Shown: positions 25,744-56,961 of the stretch, in pieces | How the letters are laid out: each line of letters opens with the position of its first letter | How positions within the stretch are numbered: position 1 is the stretch's first letter | Origin: a virus | Strand: one strand, 5' to 3' | Length of the DNA: 64,000 bases | IMG/VR virus record: IMGVR_UViG_3300030380_006185 | Coordinates: 32,001 to 96,000 of that record | Made by a program: the position numbers and the translations under genes | Notes under the pieces: generated by a model | What the model saw: only the letters and a program-made list of their open reading frames with translations | What the model was told of the DNA's origin: nothing | Database searches by the model: none

Positions 25744-25949
25744 ATCAATTATAAATATATGTCTGTATATACTTTGTTCGATGAAAAAAAATTTTTATGA
25801 AAAAAAGATTTGGGATACGTGGGAAAACAAAAAATTACCCATTTTGAAAATTATGTTTACATCGTGGGGATATTCGTATATACTAGTCGATATTGGTAGA
25901 TCGTTTACGATTTATGAGTGTGTCTAATCCGGCTTTTTCCACCACATAC

Positions 25950-26040
25950 CCGCGTATTGACAACCGCGCGCGTGGTACGGTATTACCATAGTATTACCAT
26001 ATATATACCATATATATACCGCCGCACGCGGTACGGCATA
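25950..26040. repeat. GC-rich imperfect inverted repeat enclosing 4x TACCATA
   Basis: accgcgcgcg-tggta-cggtat ... ataccg-c-cgcacgcggt arms around tattaccata gtattaccata tatataccata tatatacc. Confidence 0.7.
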
Positions 26041-26058
26041 AAGGGGTACTACCCCCTT
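26041..26058 (-). terminator. Hairpin ending the early-region transcription unit
   Basis: AAGGGG-6nt-CCCCTT, overlapping the stop of the last micro-ORF. Confidence 0.55.
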
Positions 26059-26191
26059 AACACCAATCTATATTCAAACTAAATTTTAAAAACCTAAATA
26101 CAACAAATTGCCATTTTAAATCTACTATTATTGTTGGTATTATGTACCAACTATCGTCTATATCCCAATGCTTTTTTACCTTTACTTTCAT
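26057..26191 (-). CDS. Small hypothetical protein (44 aa)
   Basis: MKVKVKKHWDIDDSWYIIPTIIVDLKWQFVVFRFLKFSLNIDWC; TAA-T-ATG coupling to the upstream ORF. Confidence 0.5.
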   Translation of the reverse strand: MKVKVKKHWDIDDSWYIIPTIIVDLKWQFVVFRFLKFSLNIDWC

Positions 26192-26353: not shown

Positions 26354-26635
26354 TTACTTAGTTTTAGTTATCCACTTATTATTTACATACTTACCAATTA
26401 CCAAACTACCATCAGCCATTAATCTAACTGTAAGTGTGTACACTCTTTTCTTACCTGTATATTTACTTACATCATTATACCACACCTTAAATGTATCACA
26501 GTTCCAATTGTTCCATACTTGAGCAATATCAAGATTTGGGTATCTAGACAGAACAAACTTTTTGACATCTACATTATTAACCATTACTTTTTCCCTTAAC
26601 ACCATTACATTTTCCATAAATCTCATTTTAATCAT
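26354..26635 (-). CDS. Hypothetical early protein
   Basis: ORF track; follows the promoter copy at 26640-26673. Confidence 0.55.
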   Translation of the reverse strand: MIKMRFMENVMVLREKVMVNNVDVKKFVLSRYPNLDIAQVWNNWNCDTFKVWYNDVSKYTGKKRVYTLTVRLMADGSLVIGKYVNNKWITKTK

Positions 26636-26904
26636 ACCACAATATACGAACCAGCACTCGCTAACCCTCTACCCTTGATATCTTGGCTGAGCATCTGGTT
26701 ACGTAGATCGTAATTTGGATCGTATCCGCACGCTTTGAGTACCATGTACAATGTTTTCCAACGTGTTTCTAGGTGGCGATAATGCTTGCTATCTGTACCA
26801 TATAACTCTTTCCACTCATCTTGTGCTACCCATGATTGCGCCTCTAATTTTTGCATGATTGCTATTGTACCTCTCTTTGTCATATACTTTTGTTTTTTGG
26901 TCAC
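26632..26904 (-). CDS. Hypothetical protein
   Basis: ORF track (start uncertain, possibly ATG at 26883). Confidence 0.5.
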   Translation of the reverse strand: MTKKQKYMTKRGTIAIMQKLEAQSWVAQDEWKELYGTDSKHYRHLETRWKTLYMVLKACGYDPNYDLRNQMLSQDIKGRGLASAGSYIVV

Positions 26905-26907
26905 CTA

Positions 26908-27085
26908 AAGCCCTACACATGGGTTGGTGTAGAGCCGTTGGCGATTGTATAATTAAAAAAGATATGGGTTTTATTTTGATGGCTAAAACCCTTAAACCAA
27001 ATATCTATACTCACCTCGCTGCTCCCCTCTATTTTAAGCAACCCAACCATTTCTTGGTCATTCCTCTCGCCGAGGTGAGTAATAC
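26908..27085 (-). ncRNA. Candidate structured RNA
   Basis: Three stems: ACUCACCUCG/CGAGGUGAGU, GGGUUUUA/UAAAACCC, and GCUCUACAC/GUGUAGGGC (U-G wobble only on the minus strand); loop CAACCCA complementary to UGGGUUG. Confidence 0.5.
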
Positions 27086-27092
27086 CAATTTC

Positions 27093-27296
27093 TTATTTAA
27101 ACCTACCGTACTGTTTTTTCATACCAAGTACTTCTTGTATCTCATCACTACTAATACCACCCTCACTTATAGGTGCATCCAATAGTATCTTCATCATTTG
27201 CATTACGATTGTATACTCACCAGTTTTATTAGCATCATCCAACAATCCTAGTTTCATCTCTTTACTCAATCCCAACAACATTTCTTTTTCAAACAT
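27093..27296 (-). CDS. Hypothetical early protein
   Basis: ORF track; own promoter copy. Confidence 0.6.
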   Translation of the reverse strand: MFEKEMLLGLSKEMKLGLLDDANKTGEYTIVMQMMKILLDAPISEGGISSDEIQEVLGMKKQYGRFK

Positions 27297-27352
27297 ATTT
27301 CTTTTTTTAATTATACTACAATATACGAACTATCTATCTAAACTGGTATTCA

Positions 27353-27649
27353 TTAAATAGGTAAATCATACTCATCAAACCTACCCTCCTCTCTACCAAA
27401 CCCAAAATTACCTTTCTCCTCAACCTCAACATCTTCTTCATAGTCATCATCAAGTACATCAGTACCAACAATAATTTCTTCACCTGTAATAGGGTCTATT
27501 CCTCTTCTTTCAAGTTCTTTCGTTACTAACCAAAATAATTTCTCAAGTGTTGTTCCTCTTTCAGTACCCAACTCACAACTAATTTCTAAATTCAAATGAT
27601 CTAACTCATTTAACAAATCGTCATCACTATAACCACTAAAATCTTTCAT
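27353..27649 (-). CDS. Acidic hypothetical early protein
   Basis: D/E-rich; own promoter copy. Confidence 0.65.
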   Translation of the reverse strand: MKDFSGYSDDDLLNELDHLNLEISCELGTERGTTLEKLFWLVTKELERRGIDPITGEEIIVGTDVLDDDYEEDVEVEEKGNFGFGREEGRFDEYDLPI

Positions 27650-27710
27650 ATTTACCCTTTAAAATTATACTACAATATACAAACTACCTATTTAAACTGG
27701 TATTCCCTAT

Positions 27711-27935
27711 TTATCTATGAAACTTTTTAAACCGAAGTTCTGTTTTATTAATAGTACTGTCTTCTATTTTCTTATCTATAGCTCTGACAGTTCGTCCTAT
27801 TTGTATTATTTCATCCCACTGATCCTCTTGGACTTTAAAAATAATGTTGTGGTATTTTTTTTGTTCTTGTCTTATATAAACTAACAGATGGCAATTCACT
27901 ATGAATGACATAAAAACTATTGTTATTGTTATCAT
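27711..27935 (-). CDS. Membrane-anchored hypothetical protein
   Basis: Hydrophobic N-terminus. Confidence 0.5.
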   Translation of the reverse strand: MITITIVFMSFIVNCHLLVYIRQEQKKYHNIIFKVQEDQWDEIIQIGRTVRAIDKKIEDSTINKTELRFKKFHR

Positions 27936-27953
27936 CTTTTTTCTTTTTTTTAT

Positions 27954-28121
27954 TTATACTTTATTTATTAAATCACTTACTTCTTTTCTAAATCCTTCAT
28001 CCTCCAAATACTTCTTACCATTTGTATACCACCATTCCTGAGATACATAACCAATAATATCATCTACAAATACTAAATTGTAGGACTTATAATAATAACC
28101 TCTTAACATTGTTTCTAACAT
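27954..28121 (-). CDS. Small early protein (55 aa)
   Basis: Hand translation MLETMLRGYYYKSYNLVFVDDIIGYVSQEWWYTNGKKYLEDEGFRKEVSDLINKV; own promoter copy. Confidence 0.55.
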   Translation of the reverse strand: MLETMLRGYYYKSYNLVFVDDIIGYVSQEWWYTNGKKYLEDEGFRKEVSDLINKV

Positions 28122-28235
28122 ACTATCTTTTTTTAATTATACTACAATATACAAACTTAGTATTAATAAGGTTAGTCCTTTTACAAACAAAAAACCATTT
28201 TTCATTATTGAACTAACCTTACTATCTAACTTAAT

Positions 28236-28565
28236 TTATTTATTTACAACTTCATTACTATCTTCAACCTTTACTTTTTTAGGTCGTCCTAATTTTAAAG
28301 TTCCATTTTTTCTTTTTTCTTCTAATTCCTTTAACCTAATTTGTCTTACACTTAAAGGATTCACTTTTCTACCTCTTAACTCAATTCCATTTTCTCTATT
28401 AAACTTTTTTCTTTCAAGTTCCTTTTGTCTAACACTATTTTCATTAACAGGTCGTCCTCTTTTCAACTCACCATTTTTTCTTTTTTCTTCCAATTCTCTC
28501 AACCTAATTTGTCTTTTACTATTCACATTAACAGGTCGTCCTAATTTTACACTTACTTTTTTCAT
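28236..28565 (-). CDS. Basic repeat protein with AT-hook-like GRP motifs
   Basis: About 3.5 copies of GRPVNxNSxRQxxLxxLEEKRKNGxLKx. Confidence 0.7.
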   Translation of the reverse strand: MKKVSVKLGRPVNVNSKRQIRLRELEEKRKNGELKRGRPVNENSVRQKELERKKFNRENGIELRGRKVNPLSVRQIRLKELEEKRKNGTLKLGRPKKVKVEDSNEVVNK

Positions 28566-28638
28566 AACTTTTTTTTATTTATTTTTAATTATACTATAAT
28601 ATACAAATTATTTATTAATTTTAAAATTCCATAATGAT

Positions 28639-28824
28639 TTAAAAATCATCATGTTTCCCACTCCATTTACCAACGTATTTATCATTTTTATCATACACTT
28701 CCAATGTATAAATTTTATCTCCCCAAACATGCATTGGAGGACGTGCACTAACGATTATCCCATAAAAACCTTCCTCAGCTGGGAATCTTAATCCCGCGTC
28801 CTTCTCTAATTTAATTTTATTCAT
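28639..28824 (-). CDS. Hypothetical early protein
   Basis: ORF track; own promoter copy. Confidence 0.6.
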   Translation of the reverse strand: MNKIKLEKDAGLRFPAEEGFYGIIVSARPPMHVWGDKIYTLEVYDKNDKYVGKWSGKHDDF

Positions 28825-28862
28825 TTTATCATTTTTTAATTATACTATAATATACGAATTAT

Positions 28863-29045
28863 TTATTTATTTGCTTCGTCCTGCATTATAACATAATCTA
28901 AAGTTTTATTTATTTGCCCTATATAGTGAAATATATCATCAATTAAATGTATTCCGTGATGATGATCCTCTACCAATTCGTTTAATTTAACTTTAAATTC
29001 TTTTAACTCTTTAATATCGTCCGTAACAAACCTTAATTTATTCAT
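28863..29045 (-). CDS. Hypothetical early protein
   Basis: ORF track; own promoter copy. Confidence 0.6.
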   Translation of the reverse strand: MNKLRFVTDDIKELKEFKVKLNELVEDHHHGIHLIDDIFHYIGQINKTLDYVIMQDEANK

Positions 29046-29102
29046 ATGTTTTTTTTTTAATTATACTATAATATACAAAATAAATATTAATTAAAACATT
29101 CC

Positions 29103-29564
29103 TTACCCACAAAAAGCTCTTTTATCTTTATTTAACATTTCTTTTACCTCTTCATTACTTATTTCTCTAACCAACTCACCACTTTTCCAATCAAACCCCC
29201 ATATTCTCTTACTACTACATCCTGCATTAGTGAATACACAAGGAACTGCCATTACTTTAATACTTTTATTTTCTTTATCCACTACCAATTTATAATATCC
29301 ATAATCACCTCCATCACCATTATCTTCAATTTCAAACCCATCACAATCACTAAACCACTCATCAAAATATATATCATCAAAATCACCCTCATCCTCACTA
29401 TACACTCTATATTCTAAATCATCCTCACCCTTAATATCCAAATAATCTTCTTCACCATAATCATAACCACCACTTCCTAATAATGGTTCTCCATAATATA
29501 TTACCCTTAATTTTTTTAATCTTTCAACAATACCCAATTTTAAATATTCTTTTTTAAATTTCAT
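29103..29564 (-). CDS. Acidic early protein, C-depleted gene
   Basis: 9 C in the 462-nt coding strand; D/E-rich core; own promoter. Confidence 0.7.
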   Translation of the reverse strand: MKFKKEYLKLGIVERLKKLRVIYYGEPLLGSGGYDYGEEDYLDIKGEDDLEYRVYSEDEGDFDDIYFDEWFSDCDGFEIEDNGDGGDYGYYKLVVDKENKSIKVMAVPCVFTNAGCSSKRIWGFDWKSGELVREISNEEVKEMLNKDKRAFCG

Positions 29565-29611
29565 ATCTCTTTTTAATTATAATATAATATACAAATTACT
29601 TATTAATTATC

Positions 29612-29797
29612 TTATTCCTCAAAACAACTTCTATCAACAAAAACACTATAATCATCACCAATACTACCACATAAATCAATTAAAAAACTTCTTAATTTAA
29701 CATCACTTTTTAAAATTAACCTTTCTTCTAGTTCACCACTATTATATAATTCTAACAAGTCATTATAAATTTTATTTACCTTTTCTTTATCTAACAT
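29612..29797 (-). CDS. Early protein, C-depleted gene
   Basis: 2 C in 186 nt; no A/P/Q/H/T; own promoter. Confidence 0.65.
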   Translation of the reverse strand: MLDKEKVNKIYNDLLELYNSGELEERLILKSDVKLRSFLIDLCGSIGDDYSVFVDRSCFEE

Positions 29798-29826
29798 ATT
29801 ACCTTTTTAATTATACTATAATATAC

Positions 29827-29850
29827 AAAAAACCCCCTATATAAGGGGGT
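29827..29850 (-). terminator. Intrinsic terminator within a promoter spacer
   Basis: ACCCCCT-5nt-AGGGGGT followed by a U-tract on the minus strand. Confidence 0.7.
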
Positions 29851-29876
29851 CCTGTACAATATTTATTTTATTTTAT

Positions 29877-30461
29877 TTAAACAACTCTTTTTAAATCTTC
29901 AATTTCACCAGTTAATACCCACTTCCTAGTTACACTACAATATTTACCTACTTTTCTAAATCCTCCATCTTCCTCATTTAATACTCTATTCATATTAACT
30001 CCTTTCCATTTAATTTTAATAATTAAAGTAGTTTCCTTTTCTAACATTTCATTTTTATAATCAAACCAATTCTTACCCCAATTTTCTTCATATTTTAAAA
30101 AGAAATTCCTATACCAATACCAACTATAATCACTTAATTTACAAATTTCAACTTCATATTTACCAAAATCCTTACTATTTAAATAATCTTTTACTTTATT
30201 AAATTTTTCATTATCACTAATTAATCTATTTTTATCACTTAAACTATTATATACATCATCATTATAATTACTAATCCATCCTTTTAACCTTCTACACTCA
30301 CCTCCTTTAACACTATATAAATCATTATAACTAACATAAAAACTTAAATTTAAATCTTTAAATATTTTATTTAATAATTCATTTTTAAAATCATTACTTT
30401 CTTTTAATAAACCTTTCCTAATACTTTTTAACTCTTTTACTTTACTACTTTCCTTAAACAT
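29877..30461 (-). CDS. Early protein, C-depleted gene
   Basis: 5 C in 585 nt; 194 aa with no A/P/Q/H and 4 T; own promoter. Confidence 0.75.
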   Translation of the reverse strand: MFKESSKVKELKSIRKGLLKESNDFKNELLNKIFKDLNLSFYVSYNDLYSVKGGECRRLKGWISNYNDDVYNSLSDKNRLISDNEKFNKVKDYLNSKDFGKYEVEICKLSDYSWYWYRNFFLKYEENWGKNWFDYKNEMLEKETTLIIKIKWKGVNMNRVLNEEDGGFRKVGKYCSVTRKWVLTGEIEDLKRVV

Positions 30462-30511
30462 ATTTTATCTTTTTAATTATACTACAATATACAAATTTTT
30501 ATTAAATAACA

Positions 30512-30532
30512 GAAGTCCTTTAACAGGACTTC
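30512..30532 (-). terminator. Hairpin overlapping the upstream promoter box
   Basis: GAAGTCCT-5nt-AGGACTTC. Confidence 0.55.
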
Positions 30533-30554
30533 CATTACTATATATAATTAAAAA

Positions 30555-30968
30555 TTAACTCTTAAATTCTTTACTTACAAAATCCTTAACCATATTATTA
30601 ATTAATTCTTTAATATCAATTCCTTTATCAATACCATTTAATATTAATTCTTTTTCAATATTTCTTTTACAATTATAATCAACACTTCCTACAATATTAA
30701 ACAAATTTTTATTTTCCTTATAACCATATCTTCCTACACTATTATAAGTAATTCTAATATTAAATTCATCATTAACCTTATTAACAAAATCATTTAATTC
30801 ATTTTCTAATTTTTCCTTTTTTAATTCTACTTCTCTTAATTCCTCTAATAAACTAAAATCAACATTTTCATTAACAATTTTTAAACATTTATCATTAACT
30901 TCCTCTACAACTTTACTATAAACTTCATTACTAACAACATCTAACTCAATTCTACTTAATTTACCCAT
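30555..30968 (-). CDS. Early protein, essentially C-free gene
   Basis: A single C in 414 nt (one Thr codon); no A/P/Q/H; own promoter. Confidence 0.75.
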   Translation of the reverse strand: MGKLSRIELDVVSNEVYSKVVEEVNDKCLKIVNENVDFSLLEELREVELKKEKLENELNDFVNKVNDEFNIRITYNSVGRYGYKENKNLFNIVGSVDYNCKRNIEKELILNGIDKGIDIKELINNMVKDFVSKEFKS

Positions 30969-31057
30969 AATTTACCTTTTTTAACTTTTAATTTTTAATA
31001 ATTTAACTTTTTAAATATAATATAATATATAAAATTTCTATTAAAATAAATATTCCT

Positions 31058-31411
31058 TTATTTTATCTCTTCAACAAATTCTTTAAAACCTTCCCAATAA
31101 AAATTACTATATTCCATTCCTATAGTACTATAATATAAATCATCTTCACTAGTATTCATATCTAATACTTCTTCCATACTAATTTTATTTTTTCCTTTAA
31201 TACACATTAATTCAGGTTCAATCATTTCACCATCTTCATCAGATTTAAATTCATTCATAATATGATCATTCATTACTTCATAAACATCTCCTTTATAAAA
31301 TACATCACTAAAACAATCTTTCCATTCATCACCTACAAACATTTCTTCATCAATTCTGTAATCAACAATTCCTGTACATACATCTTCAATAACTCTAAAT
31401 TTTCTTCCCAT
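31058..31411 (-). CDS. Acidic early protein, C-depleted gene
   Basis: 8 C in 354 nt; no A/Q; own promoter. Confidence 0.7.
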   Translation of the reverse strand: MGRKFRVIEDVCTGIVDYRIDEEMFVGDEWKDCFSDVFYKGDVYEVMNDHIMNEFKSDEDGEMIEPELMCIKGKNKISMEEVLDMNTSEDDLYYSTIGMEYSNFYWEGFKEFVEEIK

Positions 31412-31464
31412 TTTATTTTATCTTTTTAATTATAATACAATATACAAATTTCTAGTAAATTAAA

Positions 31465-31650
31465 CTATTCCTTTAATTTTTTAACCAATTTATTAAACAT
31501 TAATTCCAATTCTTTACTTTCATCCCTATTTAATATTACATTTTCAAATAAGTTAATAGGATTTATTTCTACCACTGTGTTGTTTTCTAGTATAACATCT
31601 GTAGTGTAAATATCTCTATTGTCAGTACCTTTTATTTCAACTCTTTTCAT
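31465..31650 (-). CDS. Hypothetical early protein
   Basis: ORF track; own promoter. Confidence 0.6.
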   Translation of the reverse strand: MKRVEIKGTDNRDIYTTDVILENNTVVEINPINLFENVILNRDESKELELMFNKLVKKLKE

Positions 31651-31825
31651 AATATCTTTTTAATATACTATAATATACGAATAATCTTTTTATAATAAAC
31701 TTCCTGGGTAATATAGGTTTGTTTGGTTGGGTACAAACCTGAAAACCATCCCGTTACCTCTTGCATTACTCAGTAACCCGCTAGCAAACATTGTAATCCC
31801 CGTTCTAGTAGGGTAATAAACTATT

Positions 31826-31984
31826 TTAATTCATCCATGAACATCTATCTTCCTGATTTAAATATTCAATAGGTACATAACCATACGTGGCAACCTCTTG
31901 TTTCAGTATCGATATAGATTCTTTAATGTTGTAAGTTAAACCTAGTGATTTAATATAATCTTTTAAAATATCATTTTCTTTCAT
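31826..31984 (-). CDS. Small early protein (52 aa)
   Basis: Hand translation MKENDILKDYIKSLGLTYNIKESISILKQEVATYGYVPIEYLNQEDRCSWMN; own promoter. Confidence 0.55.
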   Translation of the reverse strand: MKENDILKDYIKSLGLTYNIKESISILKQEVATYGYVPIEYLNQEDRCSWMN

Positions 31985-32039
31985 AACCTTTTTTTAAATA
32001 TACGGTAACATACGAATTACCTTTTAATAATCCTCTTCC

Positions 32040-32390
32040 TCTGGTAATAAACATTGTAATAAACATTGTAATAAACCTTGTGGTAATCCACGTTTTACCG
32101 TGTGTTTCACGTGGTTTTGTATATACTTTTGGAAGTACGTTAAAAGGACGTGTCTGGGCAATGGATGGGTTAGGGTAGTGTTAAAACTATCCCCAACACA
32201 TTGTAATACACTTTCCACACACTATATAATATTCTTGTAATAATCATTTTCTTTGGTAATAATCGTTTTCCACACCTTATCATTCATTCCACACATTGGT
32301 AATTCACTTTCCGTGGTAATCAACGATTTTTGGTAATAATCATTGTAATAGATGTTTTGGTAATAATCATTGGTAATCCACGTTTTATTT
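32040..32390. repeat. Cluster of 13 co-oriented (G/T)GTAAT motifs
   Basis: Copies near 32043, 32055, 32067, 32082, 32202, 32236, 32255, 32298, 32315, 32332, 32344, 32359, 32372; TGGTAATCCACGTTTTA occurs twice. Confidence 0.75.
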
Positions 32391-32393
32391 TGT

Positions 32394-32768
32394 TTATTCT
32401 TCATCAATTCTCAATGTTGAACCAATTATGTTTTTCAGTGTATCCTCACATTCCTTTTTAAATGCACGTAACGATTCATCTATGTTTTCTCTTGTTACCT
32501 CATTTGATCCATACTCGTTTTGATACTTAATGTGTTCAATCAAGTCATATAATGGTGCTGCTTCCCTATGGTAATTCACGTCCTCAAAACTATCTAGTAA
32601 TTTCTCTAAATTATTTACACTCGTAGTTACCCCTGCTAATAACCCACAATTCAGCATTCCCTCATAATCAAAGTTTAAACTAAATGTATCACCTAATTTG
32701 TATGTTTCTTTTTTCTGGGTATTTTCCTTCACGTACCACTCTCCGTTTATGTTTATTCTATGTTCCAT
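32394..32768 (-). CDS. Hypothetical early protein
   Basis: ORF track. Confidence 0.6.
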   Translation of the reverse strand: MEHRININGEWYVKENTQKKETYKLGDTFSLNFDYEGMLNCGLLAGVTTSVNNLEKLLDSFEDVNYHREAAPLYDLIEHIKYQNEYGSNEVTRENIDESLRAFKKECEDTLKNIIGSTLRIDEE

Positions 32769-32903
32769 TTTATTTATTTTTCCTTTTTATATCACTAATA
32801 AAATTTTCTATGTACACTCCTACTCCTATAATACCTAAAACTATTACTAAACCAAGAGAAAAAACCATGAAATACATTAATATCCTAAGTAATAACATTT
32901 CCA

Positions 32904-33161
32904 TTATATTAAATTTTCTAATTCATCAATTTTATCACTTATTACCTGCATCTTTCTAGTAATTTTTTCTAATTCACGTTCTTTTTTATGAATAGCATCT
33001 GCATATTGATCACATATATGTCCACCCTCTGGTTCTGCATCTTCCTCCATTTCCCTATGTAATTGTTTTAACTCCTCTATAATACATTTTTGGTCATGTT
33101 CTAAATCCATGTGATCCATCCCTAAATTTAATTTTGCATCTAAAATATCTGTAATCTTCAT
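32904..33161 (-). CDS. Hypothetical coiled-coil protein
   Basis: EMEEDAEPEGGHICDQYA; own promoter. Confidence 0.6.
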   Translation of the reverse strand: MKITDILDAKLNLGMDHMDLEHDQKCIIEELKQLHREMEEDAEPEGGHICDQYADAIHKKERELEKITRKMQVISDKIDELENLI

Positions 33162-33447
33162 AATTTTTCTCTTTATTTATACTATAATATACGAACTTCT
33201 AGTTAATTAAACTATTCCTTATCTATTTTTTCCAAATTAACTTCCTATTAAACGAACTTATCATTACCTTATCTTTATTCCTTTGATAATAACTTTCAAA
33301 ACTTATATTTAGTTTTTCCTTAATGTAGTAAGGCCATAATTTCTTTTTTATCTCTTTTTTCATACATGTAATATACGAACTTCTAGTAAATTAAACTATT
33401 CCCCTAGTATATACGTATTCGTTTGCTGGGTAGTATATAGTAAAAAG

Positions 33448-33699
33448 CTAGATCTCGTATTGTCCAACTATTTCATTTAGTAGCTCCTCCATTTCTAGCT
33501 CATCATCATGACATTGTTTTGAATTGTCACTATATCCACATAATGTGTGTCTTGACATGTGATATTCTATTATATTTCTTCCATTTACTAATTGCATTCT
33601 ACCATATCCATCACTATCAATATCGTATTGTGGAAATTTTTCGTTTACTACTTCGTAGAATCTACTTCTAATTTCTCTATGTATTTCTTTTTTTGTCAT
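33448..33699 (-). CDS. Hypothetical early protein
   Basis: ORF track; own promoter. Confidence 0.6.
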   Translation of the reverse strand: MTKKEIHREIRSRFYEVVNEKFPQYDIDSDGYGRMQLVNGRNIIEYHMSRHTLCGYSDNSKQCHDDELEMEELLNEIVGQYEI

Positions 33700-33755
33700 A
33701 ATTTCTCTCTCTAAATATAGTATAATATACGAACTTTTTTTCTAGAAAAATATTC

Positions 33756-34463
33756 CTACTTTTTTAAGAGTTTATATGTTTCTTTCCAATCATTAACTTG
33801 AAATACTTTATGTTTATCTCCCTTTAATACTTTAGCTAAGTCATAATCATTACCTCCAATTTCAGTTTTATCACCGTAGAAGTGAATATTAACATCTTCA
33901 TTTAGGTAATTTAATATCCAATCTTTAGCTTGGCCTTTACTAGCTCCTTTGGGATATATGTCTATTGAAATTTGTCCCCCAACTGAAACTTCTAGTTCTG
34001 GGAATGTGTTCATGATTTTTTCAACCATTTGAATTCTTTCATTAGAATTTTTATCCCATTCATAATAAGCTTCTCTTTCTTCTTGGGTACAATCCCTTCC
34101 AATAACAGAAAAATTTAATAATCCTACTCTTTCTTCAATGTGGTTTGAAGTTCTTTTTTCATAACTAGAACTAACTAGAAACCCTTCTAATAGTTTAATC
34201 AGTTGTGAATTAGGTTTCCATTCATTTTTGTAAATTTCATCCCCATTAACAAATATTTGATTACCACATGATTGGAGTGAGGCTGTTACATTTTTCCATA
34301 TATTTAATCCTACTTGTTCAATAGTTTTATCACTGTTGGAACCTGTTACAAAAAACACCTTTTTTCCTTTCATCCACTCACTAAAAAACTTTTCAAATTC
34401 TTTATCAATTGGTAATCTACTAGGTGTTAAAGTTCCATCTACATCAAATACGTAAGCTATCAT
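33756..34463 (-). CDS. pmm: HAD-IIB phosphomannomutase (eukaryotic PMM-type)
   Basis: FDVDGTLT, IEERVGLLNFSVIGR, GGQISIDIYPKG, FYGDKTEIGGNDY. Confidence 0.85.
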   Translation of the reverse strand: MIAYVFDVDGTLTPSRLPIDKEFEKFFSEWMKGKKVFFVTGSNSDKTIEQVGLNIWKNVTASLQSCGNQIFVNGDEIYKNEWKPNSQLIKLLEGFLVSSSYEKRTSNHIEERVGLLNFSVIGRDCTQEEREAYYEWDKNSNERIQMVEKIMNTFPELEVSVGGQISIDIYPKGASKGQAKDWILNYLNEDVNIHFYGDKTEIGGNDYDLAKVLKGDKHKVFQVNDWKETYKLLKK

Positions 34464-34473
34464 ATTTTTATTT

Positions 34474-34779
34474 TTATCTGCTTATTACTTTTTCAACCTT
34501 AATAGTTCCCGTGTTAATCATGTTTTTTACTCCAATCCAATCACCTTCATCTGCTATCCATTCTATTTCAAATGGTTTAAACTCGAATTGGAAATTACTT
34601 AAAGCAAATCCCATCCCACTCATTTTAAACTCATCATTATCATTCTTTCTGAATCGTAGTGTGTATTTATTATCACACATACAACTCACTACATAGAATA
34701 TTACTTCTTTAGCATTTTCCTTAACTGTTTTACCATTCATATAAAATGGGTTTTGTAATAACTCTTGATATTTACTCAT
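34474..34779 (-). CDS. Hypothetical protein
   Basis: ORF track. Confidence 0.55.
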   Translation of the reverse strand: MSKYQELLQNPFYMNGKTVKENAKEVIFYVVSCMCDNKYTLRFRKNDNDEFKMSGMGFALSNFQFEFKPFEIEWIADEGDWIGVKNMINTGTIKVEKVISR

Positions 34780-34787
34780 AACTTTCT

Positions 34788-35126
34788 TTATTTACTATTT
34801 GAATTTATAAACATTTTTTTAACATCAAATTCTTCCTTTTTAGAAACAATTCCTTTAACAGCTTCATCTACTAACTCTTCAACATTAACTCCTAATTCTA
34901 GCATTTGCTTTTTAAATCCTCTATATGCTTCATATCCTGTATCAATGGGCATTCCTAAAAATTTAACATCATAGATATCAATAAATTCCGTATCTATCCC
35001 AACTGATCCATCTTTTTTATCATAGGCAATTATTTGATGCTCTACAGTTGCTTCTATTGCATCGTTTTTTCCAATTTTAATTTCATTAACAACTGTTACT
35101 AATAATGTTTTACTTCTAATTTTCAT
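34788..35126 (-). CDS. Hypothetical early protein
   Basis: ORF track; own promoter. Confidence 0.6.
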   Translation of the reverse strand: MKIRSKTLLVTVVNEIKIGKNDAIEATVEHQIIAYDKKDGSVGIDTEFIDIYDVKFLGMPIDTGYEAYRGFKKQMLELGVNVEELVDEAVKGIVSKKEEFDVKKMFINSNSK

Positions 35127-35176
35127 AACTTTTTTCCTTTTTTTCTCTATTTATACTATAATATACAAAAGAGCTT

Positions 35177-35707
35177 TTAATTAAGCTCTTCCTCTATTTT
35201 AAATGCTGATTCAACAGGTCGTCTATAACCACCAAACTGCATATCACCATTATCAAATATTACACCACCTTTACATACTAAGGCATGTTTATTAACTAGC
35301 AATATATAAGTTCCTTTTCTAAATCGTTGCATAAATGTTTTAACTGTATATGCTACTTTTTTATGTGTATAGTCCTTATTAATTAATCGTCCACCTGTTT
35401 TAGGTGTATCACCAATGTGTTTTACTTTAATTCGTTTTCCACCATTATCACTAAATAAACTTAATTGTCCTTCAGGTTGGAATTCAATAACTTCATTTTG
35501 TAAATCTTTCATTCTAAGATTACACATTTTAGTTCCTTTACCGTTTTTTCTATTAAATCGTTCCGCTACAAATTCATGTGCTGCTTCATAACTAACATCA
35601 AATGCATTAGAACAAGCCCTAACAAAACAATCATTTTTTTCACCACCTGCTAGTTTTGATTTACTTGTAACATCATAACCGCTTTTAAATACTTTTTCAC
35701 TTAACAT
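35177..35707 (-). CDS. Hypothetical protein with a papain-like Cys/His pattern
   Basis: NDCFVRACS ... KHALVCKGG..FD. Confidence 0.45.
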   Translation of the reverse strand: MLSEKVFKSGYDVTSKSKLAGGEKNDCFVRACSNAFDVSYEAAHEFVAERFNRKNGKGTKMCNLRMKDLQNEVIEFQPEGQLSLFSDNGGKRIKVKHIGDTPKTGGRLINKDYTHKKVAYTVKTFMQRFRKGTYILLVNKHALVCKGGVIFDNGDMQFGGYRRPVESAFKIEEELN

Positions 35708-35765
35708 AACTTTCTTTTTTTAAATATACTATAATATACGAACTTTTTTTCTAGAAAAATATTCC

Positions 35766-36134
35766 TTAATCAAATTCAAATAAATCAATTATATTTTCTT
35801 CTGTTAATTGTGTTTTTTCATGAAAATCCTCATCATACATTTCAAAATCTTCATAATCATCTATTCCATTAACTGTAACTTCACCCTTACATTCTATTCC
35901 ATCACAATCAACGTAAATAAATCTCATACTAACGTTGTGAACATACTTATCTTCTAGTAATTCTTTAATATCATCCCCAATAGCCCTATCAGGTACTTCA
36001 GGTGTTTGATAATAGATTGATCTATGTCCCACACACAAATCAGTTATATATAAATTATTCTTCTCCATTTTTATGTTTCTTTTTTCTAGTATACTTCTTT
36101 TTATTCTTTTGAATACTTGGACGCGTTGCGTCAT
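35766..36134 (-). CDS. Hypothetical protein with acidic C-terminus
   Basis: ORF track. Confidence 0.55.
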   Translation of the reverse strand: MTQRVQVFKRIKRSILEKRNIKMEKNNLYITDLCVGHRSIYYQTPEVPDRAIGDDIKELLEDKYVHNVSMRFIYVDCDGIECKGEVTVNGIDDYEDFEMYDEDFHEKTQLTEENIIDLFEFD

Positions 36135-36154
36135 TAATTTCTTTCTGTGTTACT

Positions 36155-36460
36155 TTAATCTGTTTCACCTTCTAGTATTGTTACATCAGCATATTTTATT
36201 TTGCCTACTGTTTTTTTACCTAACATATCATAAGTGTATAACGTAACACAAGTAGGACCAAACTTAGTTACATTCATTCCATCTGAAAAACCTTTAAATA
36301 TTGCACCCGTTCCACGTTTCCCTTCACTACCATGTGTTCTAAACTTAGTTGGGTAATCACCATATTTACCATCAGGTCCTTCTTGATAATCTTTATGTCC
36401 TTTAACGTTGAATACTACTTTTTTAAATTGTAACTGTTCTTTAATTTCCTTAATTGTCAT
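36155..36460 (-). CDS. Hypothetical early protein
   Basis: ORF track; own promoter. Confidence 0.6.
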   Translation of the reverse strand: MTIKEIKEQLQFKKVVFNVKGHKDYQEGPDGKYGDYPTKFRTHGSEGKRGTGAIFKGFSDGMNVTKFGPTCVTLYTYDMLGKKTVGKIKYADVTILEGETD

Positions 36461-36495
36461 AACCTTTTTAATTTTGATGTAATATACGAAAAAGA

Positions 36496-36909
36496 TTAAT
36501 ATAAATCTATTCCTCTCTCAACTCTCAAATTACCTATTAATTTGTGCTGGTAGTTGATTATTTCACCATACAATTCATTAACTAGTTCTTCATCAACCTC
36601 CATGATTGATGGTTCAAATTGGTTAAATACATTATCCACATCTAATAATGCTGTCATGGTACTACCACTACTTACATTTGGGAGATCATTCTCAAATTGT
36701 CCCTCTAGCCATTCTAAATACCAATCCTTTTGTATGAATAGACTTTTTTCTATTTCTACCTTAACACAATCTAGGAATTGTATTTTAGCTATCTTTTCAT
36801 ATCCCTTCTTTGCACTAAGGTTTTGATATGTGTACCAATGTTGAGCTATTTCAAATGAAATATCTATTTCATTTTCTATTATTGTTTTAAATAAATCCTT
36901 TGCTTTCAT
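36496..36909 (-). CDS. Hypothetical early protein
   Basis: ORF track; own promoter. Confidence 0.6.
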   Translation of the reverse strand: MKAKDLFKTIIENEIDISFEIAQHWYTYQNLSAKKGYEKIAKIQFLDCVKVEIEKSLFIQKDWYLEWLEGQFENDLPNVSSGSTMTALLDVDNVFNQFEPSIMEVDEELVNELYGEIINYQHKLIGNLRVERGIDLY

Positions 36910-37087
36910 AATTTTTTTCTTTATTTATACTGAAATATACGAAAATATAGTTATATCTTCTATTCCCTAATTTAAACTTCTAGCCCAAATCACTCTAGCT
37001 ATTTTAAAATCAGATAATAAATTTAATTTCAACCCGTAACATTTAGCAATGTGCTTAATGTGTGGAAGTGCTTCTGTTAATTTTATT

Positions 37088-37333
37088 TTATTGTTCATTT
37101 CTTCTTTCCTCAAGATTTTTATTTACTGCTGTAATTTGTTCAATTGCTGTTTCTAATAGATTTTTAAAACAACCTGCTTCATATGTGTTTCTATCTCTCC
37201 AATCTAATTTTTCTGATTCTTCTTGTATTTCTTTGAATCGCTTTGGGAGATAATCAGCATATAATTGTATTTGTCTTTCTACAAAGCTATCTCTTTGTAT
37301 TCTTGCTAATTCTTTACTAAATTCCTTTGTCAT
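37088..37333 (-). CDS. Hypothetical early protein
   Basis: ORF track; own promoter. Confidence 0.6.
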   Translation of the reverse strand: MTKEFSKELARIQRDSFVERQIQLYADYLPKRFKEIQEESEKLDWRDRNTYEAGCFKNLLETAIEQITAVNKNLEERRNEQ

Positions 37334-37378
37334 AACCTTTTTTATTTAATATAATATACGAAATTAAGTTTAATAACC

Positions 37379-37609
37379 TTATTCCTCTTTAATATAATGT
37401 TTTATCTTTCTTAAATATTCTAGTGCTTTTTCTTCATCTACCCAGTATGCACTTTCACCTGGGGTTGAATTTGAAAATCCTTTAGTAACATGACTTAATC
37501 TTTCCTCTTTAATTTCACAAGAATCAGGATAGAAACTAACTTTTACTACATTAGCCTCAATTCTATAATGTACTTCTGGATCTTCTGGGAATTCTAATTT
37601 TAGTTGCAT
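37379..37609 (-). CDS. Hypothetical protein
   Basis: ORF track. Confidence 0.55.
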   Translation of the reverse strand: MQLKLEFPEDPEVHYRIEANVVKVSFYPDSCEIKEERLSHVTKGFSNSTPGESAYWVDEEKALEYLRKIKHYIKEE

Positions 37610-37611
37610 AC

Positions 37612-37833
37612 TTATTCCTTAGTGAACATTAAGAATTTAATCTGATCAAAGTCATCTAAATAGTTTATTTCAATTTTATGCCCTTTATATACCCCTAAAT
37701 CTTCAGCGTATTCAATAAACGACATTCTATCTTCGGGGTGTGCTTTGGATTGCCATTTATTCCAATCCTCTCTTAATTTAACTTCTAATTCAATATTTTT
37801 ACTCATCATCTTGTTCTTTATTAAATTCATCAA
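37612..37833 (-). CDS. Hypothetical protein
   Basis: ORF track. Confidence 0.55.
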   Translation of the reverse strand: MMNLIKNKMMSKNIELEVKLREDWNKWQSKAHPEDRMSFIEYAEDLGVYKGHKIEINYLDDFDQIKFLMFTKE

Positions 37834-38180
37834 TTTGATCTGCTATTTGCATTAATCTTTCTGATGCGAAATTTTGTCCTTCATAGTTACCATCTCGTAA
37901 CAATAGAATAAGTGATGACATTTCTTCTCTCATTCCAAATTCCATTTTGAATGTTATTGTTTCTGCTTCTTTATTCATAACTTTTATTTACTTCTAATTG
38001 ACGTTCTACAAAATAATTTAAACTTTCTAGTGATTTTTTTATATTTTCACTATTATACTCAGACGGTGCTGCGTTTAATGCTTCGTGTAAGCGATTTGAG
38101 TGAAATACAATTTTTCTCTTATAACCTTTTTCTCTTTTCATAACTTTTCTTTAAATATACTGTAATATACGAAAATAATT

Positions 38181-52632: not shown

Positions 52633-52971
52633 TTATTTCCAAAATACCTGTATAAATATTAAAGAAAGAGATAGTAAAAGAGAAGTTAAAGTTTTTAATG
52701 TTATACCTTCTTTAAAAAATATTCCTACAAATAAAGCATAAACTAGTATTCCTACACCAAACCCTATAAAACGAGCTGGCCATAATGTACCGTCAAAGTG
52801 TTGTACTGTATATTTTGTTCCATAGATATATAAGTAAGAAATGGGTATACCAAATAATGCAAGTATAAAGGTATTTTTTTCAAACCAATTCCAAATGAAT
52901 TGACCATTTAATTGAAACCATGTTACTAAATGTGCTCCTAGAAAAAATAATATTCCAAATATTAATCGCAT
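52633..52971 (-). CDS. 4-TM small membrane protein (DMT/SMR-like)
   Basis: Four hydrophobic helices; FFKEGITLK. Confidence 0.55.
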   Translation of the reverse strand: MRLIFGILFFLGAHLVTWFQLNGQFIWNWFEKNTFILALFGIPISYLYIYGTKYTVQHFDGTLWPARFIGFGVGILVYALFVGIFFKEGITLKTLTSLLLSLSLIFIQVFWK

Positions 52972-54206
52972 ATAATTAAGTTGTTTTCGTATGTCGTTAA
53001 ATCGTTGATTTGAATTTTTAAATTACCTAATTCAAATTCACCTATCTCTCCACTATCCTGAATTATTTCAGACAATTGTTGTATTATTTGCATATCTTGT
53101 TGAGTAAATTTATTGCCATTTATTTTAACAGTAATATTATCTTTAATAACATGTTTATTTGGATCAAATCCTTTAACTCTTTCATCTATATTAAATGAAC
53201 TATATTTTTGTTCTTCTTCACTGTATAAAACAAATTCTTCTAAATCAACGTAAAGATAATCACACCATGGTTCTAATGCTTGTATTAATTGTATATAGCA
53301 ATTTTCAACTACAATACCTACTTCATATTTAGGTGGTACAATTGGTTTCATTAAAGCATCATGTTTACAAAAATGCCCCCATTTACGAATAAATTCTCTA
53401 GTTGATTTTTGGTTTTGAGCTAACCATTCATCTGTTTCTCTATTTTTCATAAACACTTGACCATCAGGGTTTCGTTTTGCTCCATCGGCAAATCTACTCC
53501 CTCTACAAGTCATATGATAAACAAATCCTTCCCATGTTTGAATAAACTTAATTCCATTTAAATGAAAACGATTGAATATATCTGTATCTTCTTTTGATTG
53601 TGGAGCAAATATAGGGTCATGACCTCCTATTTCTTGAAAATCTTTTTTCCAAAATGCCCAAGGTGCAAATATACCTTCTGTAGTTTCTGGCATTGAAGAG
53701 GTATTAGCATTCAGGGGTTGGCCTATTTTTTCATGCATAAACTTAACCCTGTCTAATAGTTTTCTTTCATCAAACTCTTCAGGTTCAATACCACAATCTA
53801 ATAATATTTTTTCAGGGCCAGGTGGATGTAATGGTGGTTCGATTCTAGTAAGTGATACGATTGTTTTTTCCTTTAAATGTTTTTCAATCGCATCTAACGC
53901 ACCTGGACATAAGTACATATCAGCATGGTAAATCATACAAATATCATGTGTTGCTACTTCATTAACTAAACGATCGTATAGTATTGTATGACCTAAACGA
54001 GTTGGTCCTTCATTTCTAATTGCCTTAAATAATGGGTCTTTTTCCATCATTTCTTTACACCATTCCCAAGTATTATCCTTATCACTAAAGTCATCTGCTA
54101 CACAAATTTCTACTTCATGGTCACCTTGGTTTTTACGAATTGAATCATATGACCATTTAAGGTATTTAAGATTATTTCTACTTGGTTGGATAATTGATAT
54201 TTTCAT
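52962..54206 (-). CDS. Glycosyltransferase family 2
   Basis: KISIIQPSRN, ADDFS, HADM, IGGHD, EDTD. Confidence 0.85.
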   Translation of the reverse strand: MKISIIQPSRNNLKYLKWSYDSIRKNQGDHEVEICVADDFSDKDNTWEWCKEMMEKDPLFKAIRNEGPTRLGHTILYDRLVNEVATHDICMIYHADMYLCPGALDAIEKHLKEKTIVSLTRIEPPLHPPGPEKILLDCGIEPEEFDERKLLDRVKFMHEKIGQPLNANTSSMPETTEGIFAPWAFWKKDFQEIGGHDPIFAPQSKEDTDIFNRFHLNGIKFIQTWEGFVYHMTCRGSRFADGAKRNPDGQVFMKNRETDEWLAQNQKSTREFIRKWGHFCKHDALMKPIVPPKYEVGIVVENCYIQLIQALEPWCDYLYVDLEEFVLYSEEEQKYSSFNIDERVKGFDPNKHVIKDNITVKINGNKFTQQDMQIIQQLSEIIQDSGEIGEFELGNLKIQINDLTTYENNLIICD

Positions 54207-54212
54207 TTTTGA

Positions 54213-54776
54213 TTATTTAGGTTGTAAAATAGCTAATGTTTGAGTTGAATGAACTATTGAAGCTACTTCATTAAAATATTTTAAAGCTATGCGCCTATAT
54301 CTTTCACGATCTGGCATCCAGAAGTCATGAAAAAATACTAATCCATCTTCTTTAAGATATGGTAAACAATACTCAGCACAAAACTGTCTAGCCCTACCAT
54401 CTATTAATATTCTATCATATTTTTTCTTTATTTGTGACGGATATTCTATATAGGTTTTGTATCTATCAGGAGTACTTGGAAAATCAGACCCACCATCTTC
54501 TGTTGGTATATGATAATTTTGTATATTTTTGATTTTATCTTCTTTAATTTTATCATTAACTTTATCATACCATTCTTTATTATGTTCAATGGAATAATAT
54601 TTTTTAACATATTTAGAAAAAAGCATAGTACTGCCACCACAGCCCCATTCTAACATACTTTGTTCTTTATTTAAAAATGCAATTATTAAATTAATTTCAG
54701 AATCATGCATCCATGGTTTACTTGGTACTTCACTCATATTTGTGTTATTGTTTGGTTTGGAAATTGATAATGACAT
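54213..54776 (-). CDS. SAM-dependent (polysaccharide-type) methyltransferase
   Basis: MLEWGCGGST, SIEHN, ILIDGRAR, FFHDF; true start probably ATG 54737. Confidence 0.75.
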   Translation of the reverse strand: MSLSISKPNNNTNMSEVPSKPWMHDSEINLIIAFLNKEQSMLEWGCGGSTMLFSKYVKKYYSIEHNKEWYDKVNDKIKEDKIKNIQNYHIPTEDGGSDFPSTPDRYKTYIEYPSQIKKKYDRILIDGRARQFCAEYCLPYLKEDGLVFFHDFWMPDRERYRRIALKYFNEVASIVHSTQTLAILQPK

Positions 54777-56773: not shown

Positions 56774-56952
56774 TGAGCATGGTTTTCTAAATCATTTAAT
56801 AGTGCTAATGCTTCACCAAAATTAAAATAATGGGCTTTGCATATTCTTATGTAATACTCATTTGTTTTTGTTATTTGTCCTATACTAATTTCAATGTTTG
56901 TAACTTCTATAGCTTTATCTACTTTTAATAACTTTGTTTCTTTTTCTGTCAT
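56770..56952 (-). CDS. Hypothetical protein
   Basis: ORF track. Confidence 0.5.
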   Translation of the reverse strand: MTEKETKLLKVDKAIEVTNIEISIGQITKTNEYYIRICKAHYFNFGEALALLNDLENHAQ

Positions 56953-56961
56953 AACTTTTAT

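What the first reader, a model, noticed from the sequence alone, without database searches (positions are those of the whole stretch)
29101..31440. A natural 'three-letter' gene island: G-less template strand and C-less mRNAs
Seen (hand count): 35 G in 2340 nt of the + strand, 10 of them in or beside two intergenic hairpins; G-free runs of 409 nt (30103-30511) and 376 nt (30749-31124); C is abundant on the same strand, so this is not just AT richness. Coding-strand C counts are 9/462, 2/186, 5/585, 1/414 and 8/354. The 194-aa and 137-aa proteins have no Ala, Pro, Gln or His. Ser, Arg and Leu use AGT, AGR and TTR almost exclusively, and most remaining C's are obligatory. Each gene has its own promoter, and the depletion fades on both sides. 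Logic: a strand without G cannot contain any C/G-containing palindrome. Inferred explanations: (a) a generic anti-restriction design for first-exposed DNA; (b) transcripts insensitive to CTP depletion or viperin ddhCTP chain termination, or to C-targeting RNases/deaminases; (c) a template free of a bulky modified G or of G-ADP-ribosylation (DarT1-type), so RNAP can read it before takeover; (d) strand-specific C deamination of a persistently single-stranded segment. I know of no described equivalent, but could not search.
Basis: partly seen in the sequence, partly recalled or inferred. Interest (0 to 1): 0.93.

Follow-up and report, generated by a model that had tools for sequence, protein, structure and literature searches.

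The report
Phage early genes written without cytosine
A marine T4-like phage of flavobacteria carries five early genes whose coding strand almost lacks the letter C, so their proteins use only about 15 amino acids; selection has kept this in many relatives, and I found no published description.

Summary
Window 29101-31440 has 35 G in 2340 nt of the + strand, against about 302 expected. The G-free runs are 409 and 376 nt. This is the only such trough in the 156-kb genome.

It is not an artefact. Independent assemblies and the cultured Flavobacterium phage immuto (gp143) show the same trait.

It is specific to single genes, not to a region:
- Boundaries are sharp and normal genes lie between depleted ones.
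- Non-homologous genes at the same locus in relatives are also C-free.
- The 137-aa and 194-aa families stay C-free down to about 30% identity.
- A 105-kb relative has 1.81 kb with no C at all.

Selection, not deamination, fits best:
- Gln is absent.
- Ser is coded by AGT.
- C/T polymorphic sites number 4, against 67 A/G sites (controls 71 and 89).

The phage has a complete preQ0 pathway and a DpdA3-type enzyme, so its G is probably all 7-deazaguanine.

My best guess (about 0.3) is that the template strand of the first-read genes avoids the modified G. The close rival (0.25) is that something acts on C in the new RNA. The scan has noted similar cassettes in other phages.

The parts
31058..31411 (-). 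117-aa acidic early protein. First gene of the island; 8 C in 354 nt.
   Evidence: The ortholog in L019 is 90% identical and has 2.0% C.
30555..30968 (-). 137-aa protein, one of the two core C-free families. 1 C in 414 nt. Predicted as a helical hairpin plus a small beta element; no fold match.
   Evidence: 0 C in three relatives; relatives at 28-33% identity are still C-free.
29877..30461 (-). 194-aa protein, the second core C-free family (motifs NDLYSVKGGECRRLKG, ENWGKNWFDYK, IKIKWKG). 5 C in 585 nt.
   Evidence: 102 cluster representatives lack Ala, Pro and His; remote homologs are also C-free, except P0114; no significant fold match.
29612..29797 (-). 61-aa protein. 2 C in 186 nt.
29103..29564 (-). 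153-aa very acidic protein. 9 C in 462 nt, most of them near the 3' end. Absent from L018 and L024.
31423..31446 (-). Promoter-like motif TTTGTATATTGTATTATAATTAAAAA in front of the 117-aa gene. It is the C-free variant of the early-gene motif.
   Evidence: The T variant goes with C-poor genes (8/0 against 3/10, p=0.001).
31008..31031 (-). A/T-only variant of the motif in front of the 137-aa gene.
30470..30493 (-). Promoter-like motif (TTTG variant) in front of the 194-aa gene.
30512..30533 (-). Hairpin GGAAGTCC-loop-GGACTTC after the 137-aa gene. It holds 4 of the 35 G of the + strand.
   Evidence: It was not called by the terminator scan because its T run is interrupted.
29804..29827 (-). Promoter-like motif (exact consensus) in front of the 61-aa gene. 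It overlaps the T tail of the terminator.
29829..29853 (-). Intrinsic terminator AGGACCCCC-loop-GGGGGTTTT plus T run after the 194-aa gene. It holds most of the 6 G counted for this hairpin; the sixth is at 29854, just beside it.
29570..29593 (-). Promoter-like motif (TTTG variant) in front of the 153-aa gene.
26354..29045 (-). Downstream mosaic of small early genes. Some are partly C-depleted (4.2-5.7% C: 27353-27649, 27954-28121, 28236-28565). They are interleaved with normal genes (28639-28824 at 9.1%, 27711-27935 at 12%).
26625..38171 (-). Whole array of early-gene cassettes that carry the repeated motif TT(T/C)GTATATTATAGTATAAT. The sense strand has almost no windows with C above G.

Best explanation
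This explanation has two layers.

Layer 1 is shown, and I put its confidence at about 0.9. These are real, fast-evolving early genes. Each has its own promoter. Purifying selection acts on every single C of the sense strand, which is the same as every G of the template strand. It acts from about the promoter to the terminator hairpin. As a result the proteins are built from about 15 amino acids.

Layer 2 is inferred, and I put it at about 0.3; the confidence field gives this figure. The phage very probably replaces all its G with a 7-deazaguanine, using DpdA3 and a preQ0 pathway. The first genes have to be read by host RNA polymerase from this fully modified parental DNA. A template strand without any modified G cannot be stopped by anything that acts at that base. 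Such agents include base excision or nicking by host defence glycosylases, other G-directed DNA attack, and impaired initiation at modified promoter positions. Lesions on the G-rich non-template strand do not stop the polymerase. These genes would therefore still be expressed while the genome is under attack, and they would deliver counter-defence or takeover proteins. The small, acidic, rapidly changing products fit that role.
For: Layer 1:
- Composition and codon counts.
- Avoidable-C codon use is 6/462, against a genome mean of 23.6%. NNC and NNT codons share a tRNA, so the pressure acts on the nucleotide.
- Gene-specific sharp edges: L100 goes 8.6% -> 0.0% -> 0.2% -> 11.7%. L110 has 1.81 kb with zero C between genes of 7.8% and 18.3% C.
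- Non-homologous C-free genes sit at the same locus in L019 and L030.
- Both core families remain C-free at 28-33% identity. The one exception, P0114, shows that the fold tolerates Ala, Pro, His, Gln and Thr.
- Among four orthologous islands there are 161 variable sites and only 10 involve C. C/T sites number 4 against 67 A/G sites. Controls have 71 against 89 (Fisher p=4e-10).

Layer 2:
- FolE2, QueD, QueE and QueC are found by Pfam.
- The closest cultured-phage matches of the DpdA gene are immuto and the Campylobacter Firehammerviruses, which are DpdA3 type.
- DpdA3 phages are fully G-substituted, and immuto is 100% fdPreQ1 (PMC10516641).
- Immuto itself has one C-poor early gene, gp143, with 5 C in 357 nt against a genome mean of 14.5%.
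- Diverse defence glycosylases of marine vibrios excise 7-deazaguanines and fragment such DNA (bioRxiv 10.1101/2025.10.29.685425).
- The sense strand is G-rich (20-28%), so only the template strand is spared.
- C is also avoided upstream of the start site. In this window TTCG becomes TTTG (p=0.001). All five promoter C are absent in L110. The C of TATCAAT is lost in immuto gp143. This fits in-vitro data that bulky 7-substituents on deazaG block initiation (PMC4838386).
Against: - Campylobacter phage CP220 is also DpdA3 type and 100% modified, yet has no C-poor gene (minimum 6.4% C).
- In vitro, 7-substituted deazaG did not pause or slow E. coli RNA polymerase during elongation. The modification by itself therefore should not matter inside genes. 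An attacking host enzyme has to be assumed, and none is known in flavobacteria.
- Neighbouring early genes with 7-10% C carry the same promoter type and are presumably expressed too.
- The modification of this uncultured phage has not been measured.
- DpdA could not be checked in the more distant C-free loci (L100, L103, L108, L110).
- Other notes of this scan report C-free, and even A-free, early cassettes in other phage groups. One follow-up on a G-modifying phage preferred an RNA-level cause (unchecked).
Confidence: 0.3

Rival explanations
1. The liability is C in the nascent or finished RNA, not G in the DNA. Three candidate agents are possible. One is termination factor Rho, which loads on C-rich, G-poor RNA at YC steps. 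Another is a host or phage ribonuclease that cuts at C. The third is a shortage of CTP, or a CTP analogue, during the first minutes of infection. C-free messages would be immune to all three.
For: The C-free zone matches transcription units, from promoter or leader to terminator hairpin. The whole early region has almost no 150-nt windows with C above G (0-1.9%, against 22-40% in middle and late genes), as expected for Rho avoidance (PMC13323073). YC steps fall from 0.050 to 0.004 per nt. CP220 shows that G modification alone does not produce the trait. Other scan notes report the same trait in unrelated phages (unchecked).
Against: Neighbouring early genes with 7-10% C already meet the Rho criterion, so Rho does not explain the further step to 0-1%. 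C was mostly replaced by T, and T richness favoured Rho in B. subtilis. No C-specific RNase or CTP-depleting defence is known to me. ddhCTP spares host RNA polymerase, and I saw no phage RNA polymerase gene in the proteins I scanned (own knowledge). Promoter C upstream of the start site is also avoided in several cases. Predicted folding is only mildly weaker (-0.116 against -0.147 kcal/nt).
Confidence: 0.25
2. A host single-strand-specific cytosine deaminase, with uracil excision following it, attacks the displaced non-template strand of the most heavily transcribed first genes. C there is both mutated away and selected against.
For: Depletion is strand-specific and tied to transcription units. 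The main replacement is C to T: against other early genes T rises by about 7 points and C falls by about 9. Cys, Tyr, Val, Trp and Phe are enriched, as C-to-T changes predict. In immuto the C-free zone starts at about the -10 box, which is the upstream edge of the transcription bubble.
Against: No such anti-phage deaminase is known to me in these hosts. Gln (CAA/CAG) cannot be removed by C-to-T without making a stop codon, yet it is absent (0 against about 23 expected). Ser was recoded from TCN to AGT, which needs several steps. G also rises. A conserved gene with 9% C sits unharmed between depleted genes in four phages and has a normal share of C/T polymorphic sites.
Confidence: 0.12
3. Neutral regional mutation pressure is the cause. 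Possible sources are a replication origin, an R-loop or a persistently single-stranded segment. No selection on C is involved.
For: There is a broad shallow trough of C over the whole early region. A GC-rich repeat-bearing non-coding stretch that could be an origin lies 3 kb downstream.
Against: Boundaries between genes are sharp and the pattern is a mosaic. The trait follows the two gene families into different genomes and different gene orders. T-to-C changes are missing from the polymorphism, although A/G changes are plentiful. The terminator hairpins keep their C.
Confidence: 0.03
4. This is an anti-restriction design of first-injected DNA. A strand without G cannot carry palindromes that contain G and C.
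For: The logic is correct. Phage T5 offers a precedent: its first-step-transfer DNA lacks EcoRI sites (own knowledge).
Against: All C is removed, not only C in palindromes. One cut anywhere else in the 156 kb would still kill the phage. The island lies mid-contig in a T4-like phage. Full G modification already blocks enzymes with G in their site in immuto. One hairpin keeps GGACC/GGTCC.
Confidence: 0.02

Closest known systems
Rho-avoiding purine (G over C) bias of sense strands (Dierksheide et al. 2026, PMC13323073)
   Same: The bias is strand-specific and selection-driven. There is less C than G on the sense strand, codon choice is affected, and the effect is strongest where transcription may outrun translation. 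The whole early region of this phage fits.
   Different: That bias is quantitative. It does not remove every C or five amino acids. Neighbouring genes already satisfy the criterion. T rises here, which favoured Rho in that study.
Engineered G-less / C-less cassettes for in vitro transcription, and ACA-less MazF-resistant messages
   Same: A transcript is written so that one nucleotide or one motif is absent and an agent that needs it cannot act.
   Different: Those are man-made. The natural case here removes the whole letter from translated genes and has been kept through deep divergence.
Promoter-early stem-loop (PeSL) mobile cassettes in hyperplastic regions of T4-type phages (Arbiol et al. 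2010, from memory)
   Same: An array of small, unrelated early ORFs, each behind a near-identical early promoter, some followed by a stem-loop. Gene content differs between close relatives.
   Different: No compositional rule such as absence of C has been described for PeSL cassettes.
Restriction-site avoidance in phage T5 first-step-transfer DNA
   Same: Local sequence avoidance in the DNA that acts first during infection.
   Different: T5 avoids particular sites in a terminal segment. Here a whole base is avoided on one strand, gene by gene, in mid-genome.
DpdA3-type 7-deazaguanine genomes (immuto, Cellulophaga phiST, Campylobacter CP220; PMC10516641)
   Same: The same enzyme set is present, and immuto is the nearest cultured relative (capsid 60% identical).
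   Different: Those papers describe the modification. As far as I could find, they do not describe any avoidance of G in early-gene templates. CP220 lacks the trait.

Membership tests
Rho-avoiding sense-strand bias | No long windows with C above G on the sense strand. | tested here: met
   0 of 88 windows in the island. Only 1.4-1.9% in the other early genes, so this feature does not set the island apart.
Rho-avoiding sense-strand bias | Low T richness; expression depends on Rho. | tested here: inconclusive
   T rises to 35%, which goes the wrong way. Dependence on Rho is not testable with these tools.
Restriction-site avoidance / first-injected DNA (T5 type) | Avoidance is confined to recognition palindromes. 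| tested here: not met
   All C is depleted, including at codon positions 1, 2 and 3. A GGACC/GGTCC site is retained in a hairpin.
Restriction-site avoidance / first-injected DNA (T5 type) | Location at the genome end that enters first. | not testable with these tools
   The island is at 61-63 kb of a 156-kb contig without end repeats. The physical ends are unknown.
Motif-free (ACA-less type) nuclease-resistant messages | One short motif is absent while its letters occur elsewhere. | tested here: not met
   The letter itself is missing: 1-9 C per gene.
PeSL-like mobile early cassettes of T4-type phages | Repeated early promoter, small unrelated ORF and occasional stem-loop; variable content between relatives. 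| tested here: met
   24 motif copies in window 26.6-38.2 kb and two beyond; presence or absence of genes differs among L018, L019, L024 and L030; one terminator is called.
Transcription- or replication-associated deamination skew | A smooth regional gradient, C to T only, with Gln retained. | tested here: not met
   The pattern is a mosaic with sharp edges. Gln is 0 of 657, and Ser is AGT.
DpdA3-type 7-deazaguanine-modified phage genome | A DpdA homolog of the DpdA3 group. | tested here: met
   tblastn gives 36% identity to immuto DpdA and 34% to CP220-group proteins. The only cultured-phage hits are these two groups. There is no Pfam hit.
DpdA3-type 7-deazaguanine-modified phage genome | preQ0 synthesis genes. 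| tested here: met
   FolE2 (PF02649, 8e-71), QueD/PTPS, QueE (weak radical SAM hit; 66% identical to immuto QueE) and QueC. No QueF was found.
DpdA3-type 7-deazaguanine-modified phage genome | Modified base actually present in virion DNA. | not testable with these tools
   The phage is uncultured. Measurement exists only for the relative immuto.

The most novel reading that the evidence does not exclude
Letter-free immediate-early genes may be a general phage strategy that has gone unnoticed. The template strand of the very first genes omits the base that is the target of a nucleotide-specific host attack. Here that base would be the phage's own hypermodified G; in other phages it could be another letter. 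The first counter-defence messages can then always be completed. The 137-aa and 194-aa pair would be the cargo: a conserved, still unknown counter-defence module.
Probability: 0.25. Interest if true: 0.95.

Novelty: categorically new. Interest (0 to 1): 0.86.

Why it matters
Natural, translated genes that use only three of the four letters, and therefore only about 15 amino acids, and that selection has kept so over deep divergence, are not in the literature I could search.

They imply that some agent counts every C of a message, or every G of its template, during the first minutes of infection. That agent would be either an unknown kind of host immunity or an unknown cost of DNA hypermodification.

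They also mark which early genes matter most to the phage. They are natural examples of folded proteins built from a reduced alphabet.

Because the cultured Flavobacterium phage immuto has such a gene (gp143) and a known DNA modification, the question can be tested at the bench now.

Tried and rejected
- Assembly or base-calling artefact: rejected. The island recurs, with sequence differences, in three other IMG/VR contigs, in about 100 ENA, JGI, Tara and Logan protein clusters, and in a cultured phage.
- tRNA or amino-acid-level cause: rejected. NNC codons are avoided although NNT uses the same tRNA.
- Unstructured-RNA explanation: weak. Predicted folding energy differs only modestly.
- Function of the proteins: no PHROG or Pfam family. 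AlphaFold models have pLDDT 68.6 and 85.3, with no significant match by Foldseek or VIA-align (best Z 6.8, below the noise guide). The atlas feature search gave only noise-level hits.
- DNA similarity to cultured phages: none.
- Testing whether distant C-free loci co-occur with DpdA failed. L110's record is not held. Two further scans of viral contigs found nothing, and one found only the three relatives already known. The larger fragments of more distant relatives lack both DpdA and the family, but are only 29-62% complete.
- The sigma-70 promoter scan is uninformative: 54 sites against 46.8 expected. The likely host is a flavobacterium, for which that consensus was not built (inference).
- Context of the remaining C: mostly ACN Thr codons, with no clear enzyme signature and small numbers.
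- NG86 dN/dS of 1-2.8 in the island is inflated because T-to-C synonymous changes are forbidden. At synonymous sites that do not involve C, island divergence is 0.3-1 times that of the flanks.
Full report
**What is there**

The window is bases 32001-96000 of a 156,273-bp IMG/VR virus record that is 96% complete. In it, 224 of 229 ORFs lie on the minus strand.

The record encodes a T4-type portal, a gp23 capsid protein, two sheath proteins, baseplate J, a split family-B polymerase, ribonucleotide reductase and a GroEL. Its nearest cultured relative is Flavobacterium phage vB_FspM_immuto, with a capsid protein 60% identical. The host is therefore probably a marine flavobacterium.

- Window 29101-31440 has 35 G on the + strand, against about 302 expected.
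- The G-free runs are 409 and 376 nt, at the stated coordinates.
- Ten of the 35 G lie in two hairpins.
- Seen over the whole genome, this is the only such trough.
- The five minus-strand genes have 0.2-2.3% C on the coding strand, against 9-16% elsewhere.

**Anatomy**

Every small gene from window 26.6 to 38.2 kb is preceded by a copy of TT(T/C)GTATATTATAGTATAATTAAAAA and a short A-rich leader. This array resembles the mobile early-promoter cassettes of T4-type phages.

Inside the island two hairpins follow genes. One is a clear intrinsic terminator. They hold nearly all the non-coding C.

The upstream edge of the island is sharp: a gene with 6.5% C is followed by one with 2.3%. Downstream, genes with 4-6% C alternate with genes of 9-12% C.

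The promoter copies in front of C-poor genes carry TTTG instead of TTCG. The counts are 8/0 against 3/10, p=0.001.

**Level of the pressure**

In 657 codons of the island:

| Amino acid | Observed | Expected |
|---|---|---|
| Gln | 0 | about 23 |
| Ala | 3 | 32 |
| Pro | 3 | 26 |
| His | 1 | 10 |
| Thr | 9 | 39 |

- Codons that could avoid C do so in 456 of 462 cases. The genome mean for using a C-containing codon is 23.6%, and no other gene falls below 8.9%.
- NNC is avoided although NNT is read by the same tRNA. The target is therefore the nucleotide, not a tRNA or an amino acid.
- Ser is kept at its normal frequency, but as AGT (42 of 43). Single C-to-T changes cannot produce this.
- Gln cannot be lost by C-to-T without creating a stop codon.

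**Relatives**

Three other viral contigs carry the island, with orthologs 83-97% identical and still C-free. The 137-aa gene has 0 C in 414 nt in all three.

L019 has five or six further non-homologous genes with 1.8-3.6% C. L030 has two different genes with 0.8-1.0% C at the same locus. A conserved 61-aa gene keeps 9% C between depleted neighbours in all four phages.

The 194-aa family has 102 cluster representatives down to 65% identity. They contain essentially no Ala, Pro or His and almost no Gln. A profile search of 1.8 billion proteins found remote members below 50% identity, and nearly all are again free of these residues. One exception, P0114, has 12.6% of them and a gene with 8.6% C, so the fold itself does not forbid them.

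The DNA of remote members shows the same gene-sharp pattern:

- L100 goes 8.6% -> 0.0% -> 0.2% -> 11.7%.
- L103 has nine genes at 0-3% C.
- L108 has three genes with 0-1 C.
- L110, from a 105-kb contig, has 1.81 kb without a single C. This stretch holds four genes and their A/T-only promoters. It lies between genes of 7.8% and 18.3% C.

The 137-aa and 194-aa families travel together, in either order, and form the constant core.

The cultured phage immuto has one such gene, gp143. It is acidic and 118 aa long, with 5 C in 357 nt against a genome mean of 14.5%. Its promoter has lost the C of TATCAAT and the C at the start region.

**Selection against mutation**

Among four orthologous islands there are 161 variable sites, and only 10 involve C. 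C/T sites number 4 and A/G sites number 67. In flanking genes of the same genomes the numbers are 71 and 89 (p=4e-10).

New T-to-C changes must arise about as often as A-to-G changes, yet they are missing. A mutational explanation would need a C-to-T rate some hundred-fold above background in some genes and not in the gene 50 bp away.

The proteins themselves change quickly within their 15-letter alphabet, as arms-race proteins do. Even so, they keep invariant motifs over deep divergence.

**What could count every C or every template G?**

The genome has FolE2, QueD, QueE and QueC, and a DpdA whose only cultured-phage matches are immuto and the Campylobacter Firehammerviruses. This is the DpdA3 group, which replaces all G (PMC10516641). 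Immuto DNA is 100% fdPreQ1.

Marine vibrios carry many defence glycosylases that excise 7-deazaguanines and fragment such DNA. A lesion stops RNA polymerase only on the template strand. That would explain why the sense strand may stay G-rich.

Bulky 7-substituents on deazaG block initiation in vitro. This fits the loss of promoter C.

Against this reading:

- The same in-vitro study saw no effect on elongation.
- CP220 is fully modified and has no C-poor gene.
- I could not test DpdA in the distant loci.

The RNA-level rival rests on Rho. The whole early region has almost no windows with C above G, against 22-40% in later genes, as the 2026 purine-bias paper predicts. The neighbours already meet that criterion, however, so it does not explain the last step to zero.

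I therefore hold the template-G reading at about 0.3, the RNA-level reading at 0.25, and a deaminase on the displaced strand at 0.12.

**Known or new**

Full-text searches for natural cytosine-free genes found only engineered C-less cassettes.

Notes from this scan, which are unchecked, report similar cassettes in other phage groups. These include a G-modifying freshwater phage, giant phages and archaeal viruses, as well as an adenine-free case. The trait may therefore be widespread and undescribed.

Noticed in passing
window 25760-26060 (minus strand): A non-coding stretch of about 300 bp at the end of the early array. It is much richer in G+C than its surroundings. It has inverted repeats (GGGGGTAGTACCCC, CCGCGTGCGGCGG) and direct repeats (TATGGTA(A)TA). 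It could be a replication origin or a regulatory region.
   Followed up: no
genome 109641-117840 (loci L011:13641-18311 and L012:1046-1840): A run of genes for DNA guanine modification: QueC, QueD, QueE, an SNase-like nuclease, a phosphoribosyltransferase, FolE2 and a MazG/PRA-PH-like pyrophosphatase, with a DpdA3-like gene 3 kb away. No QueF was found, so the product is probably preQ0, ADG or a derivative of them rather than preQ1.
   Followed up: partly
genome 1-4000 (locus L009): The first 4 kb of the record have about 40% G+C, against 30% for the rest, and few long ORFs. This may be a foreign or mis-joined end, or a special terminal region.
   Followed up: no
window 26.6-38.2 kb: The sense strand of all early cassettes has almost no 150-nt window with C above G (0-1.9%). 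The figure is 40% in the structural genes. This is a whole-module skew of the kind attributed to Rho avoidance.
   Followed up: partly
L110:9706-11518: In a 105-kb relative, the four C-free genes use A/T-only promoters (TTTG, about 20 nt, TATATTTAAATA) that resemble the Bacteroidota -33/-7 pattern. Neighbouring genes use CGTATATTCACAACATAAT. These may be two temporal promoter classes.
   Followed up: partly
NC_055915.1 68330-68686 (L015:18330-18686): gp143 of the cultured phage immuto is a 118-aa acidic protein encoded with only 5 C. It offers a bench-ready model for the trait.
   Followed up: partly
window 52962-60821: A cluster of glycosyltransferases (two GT1, one GT2), syntenic with immuto's sugar-nucleotide and glycosyltransferase block. 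It may act on virion proteins or on the host surface.
   Followed up: no
L013:5661-9128: Two adjacent tail-sheath paralogs of 564 and 574 aa.
   Followed up: no
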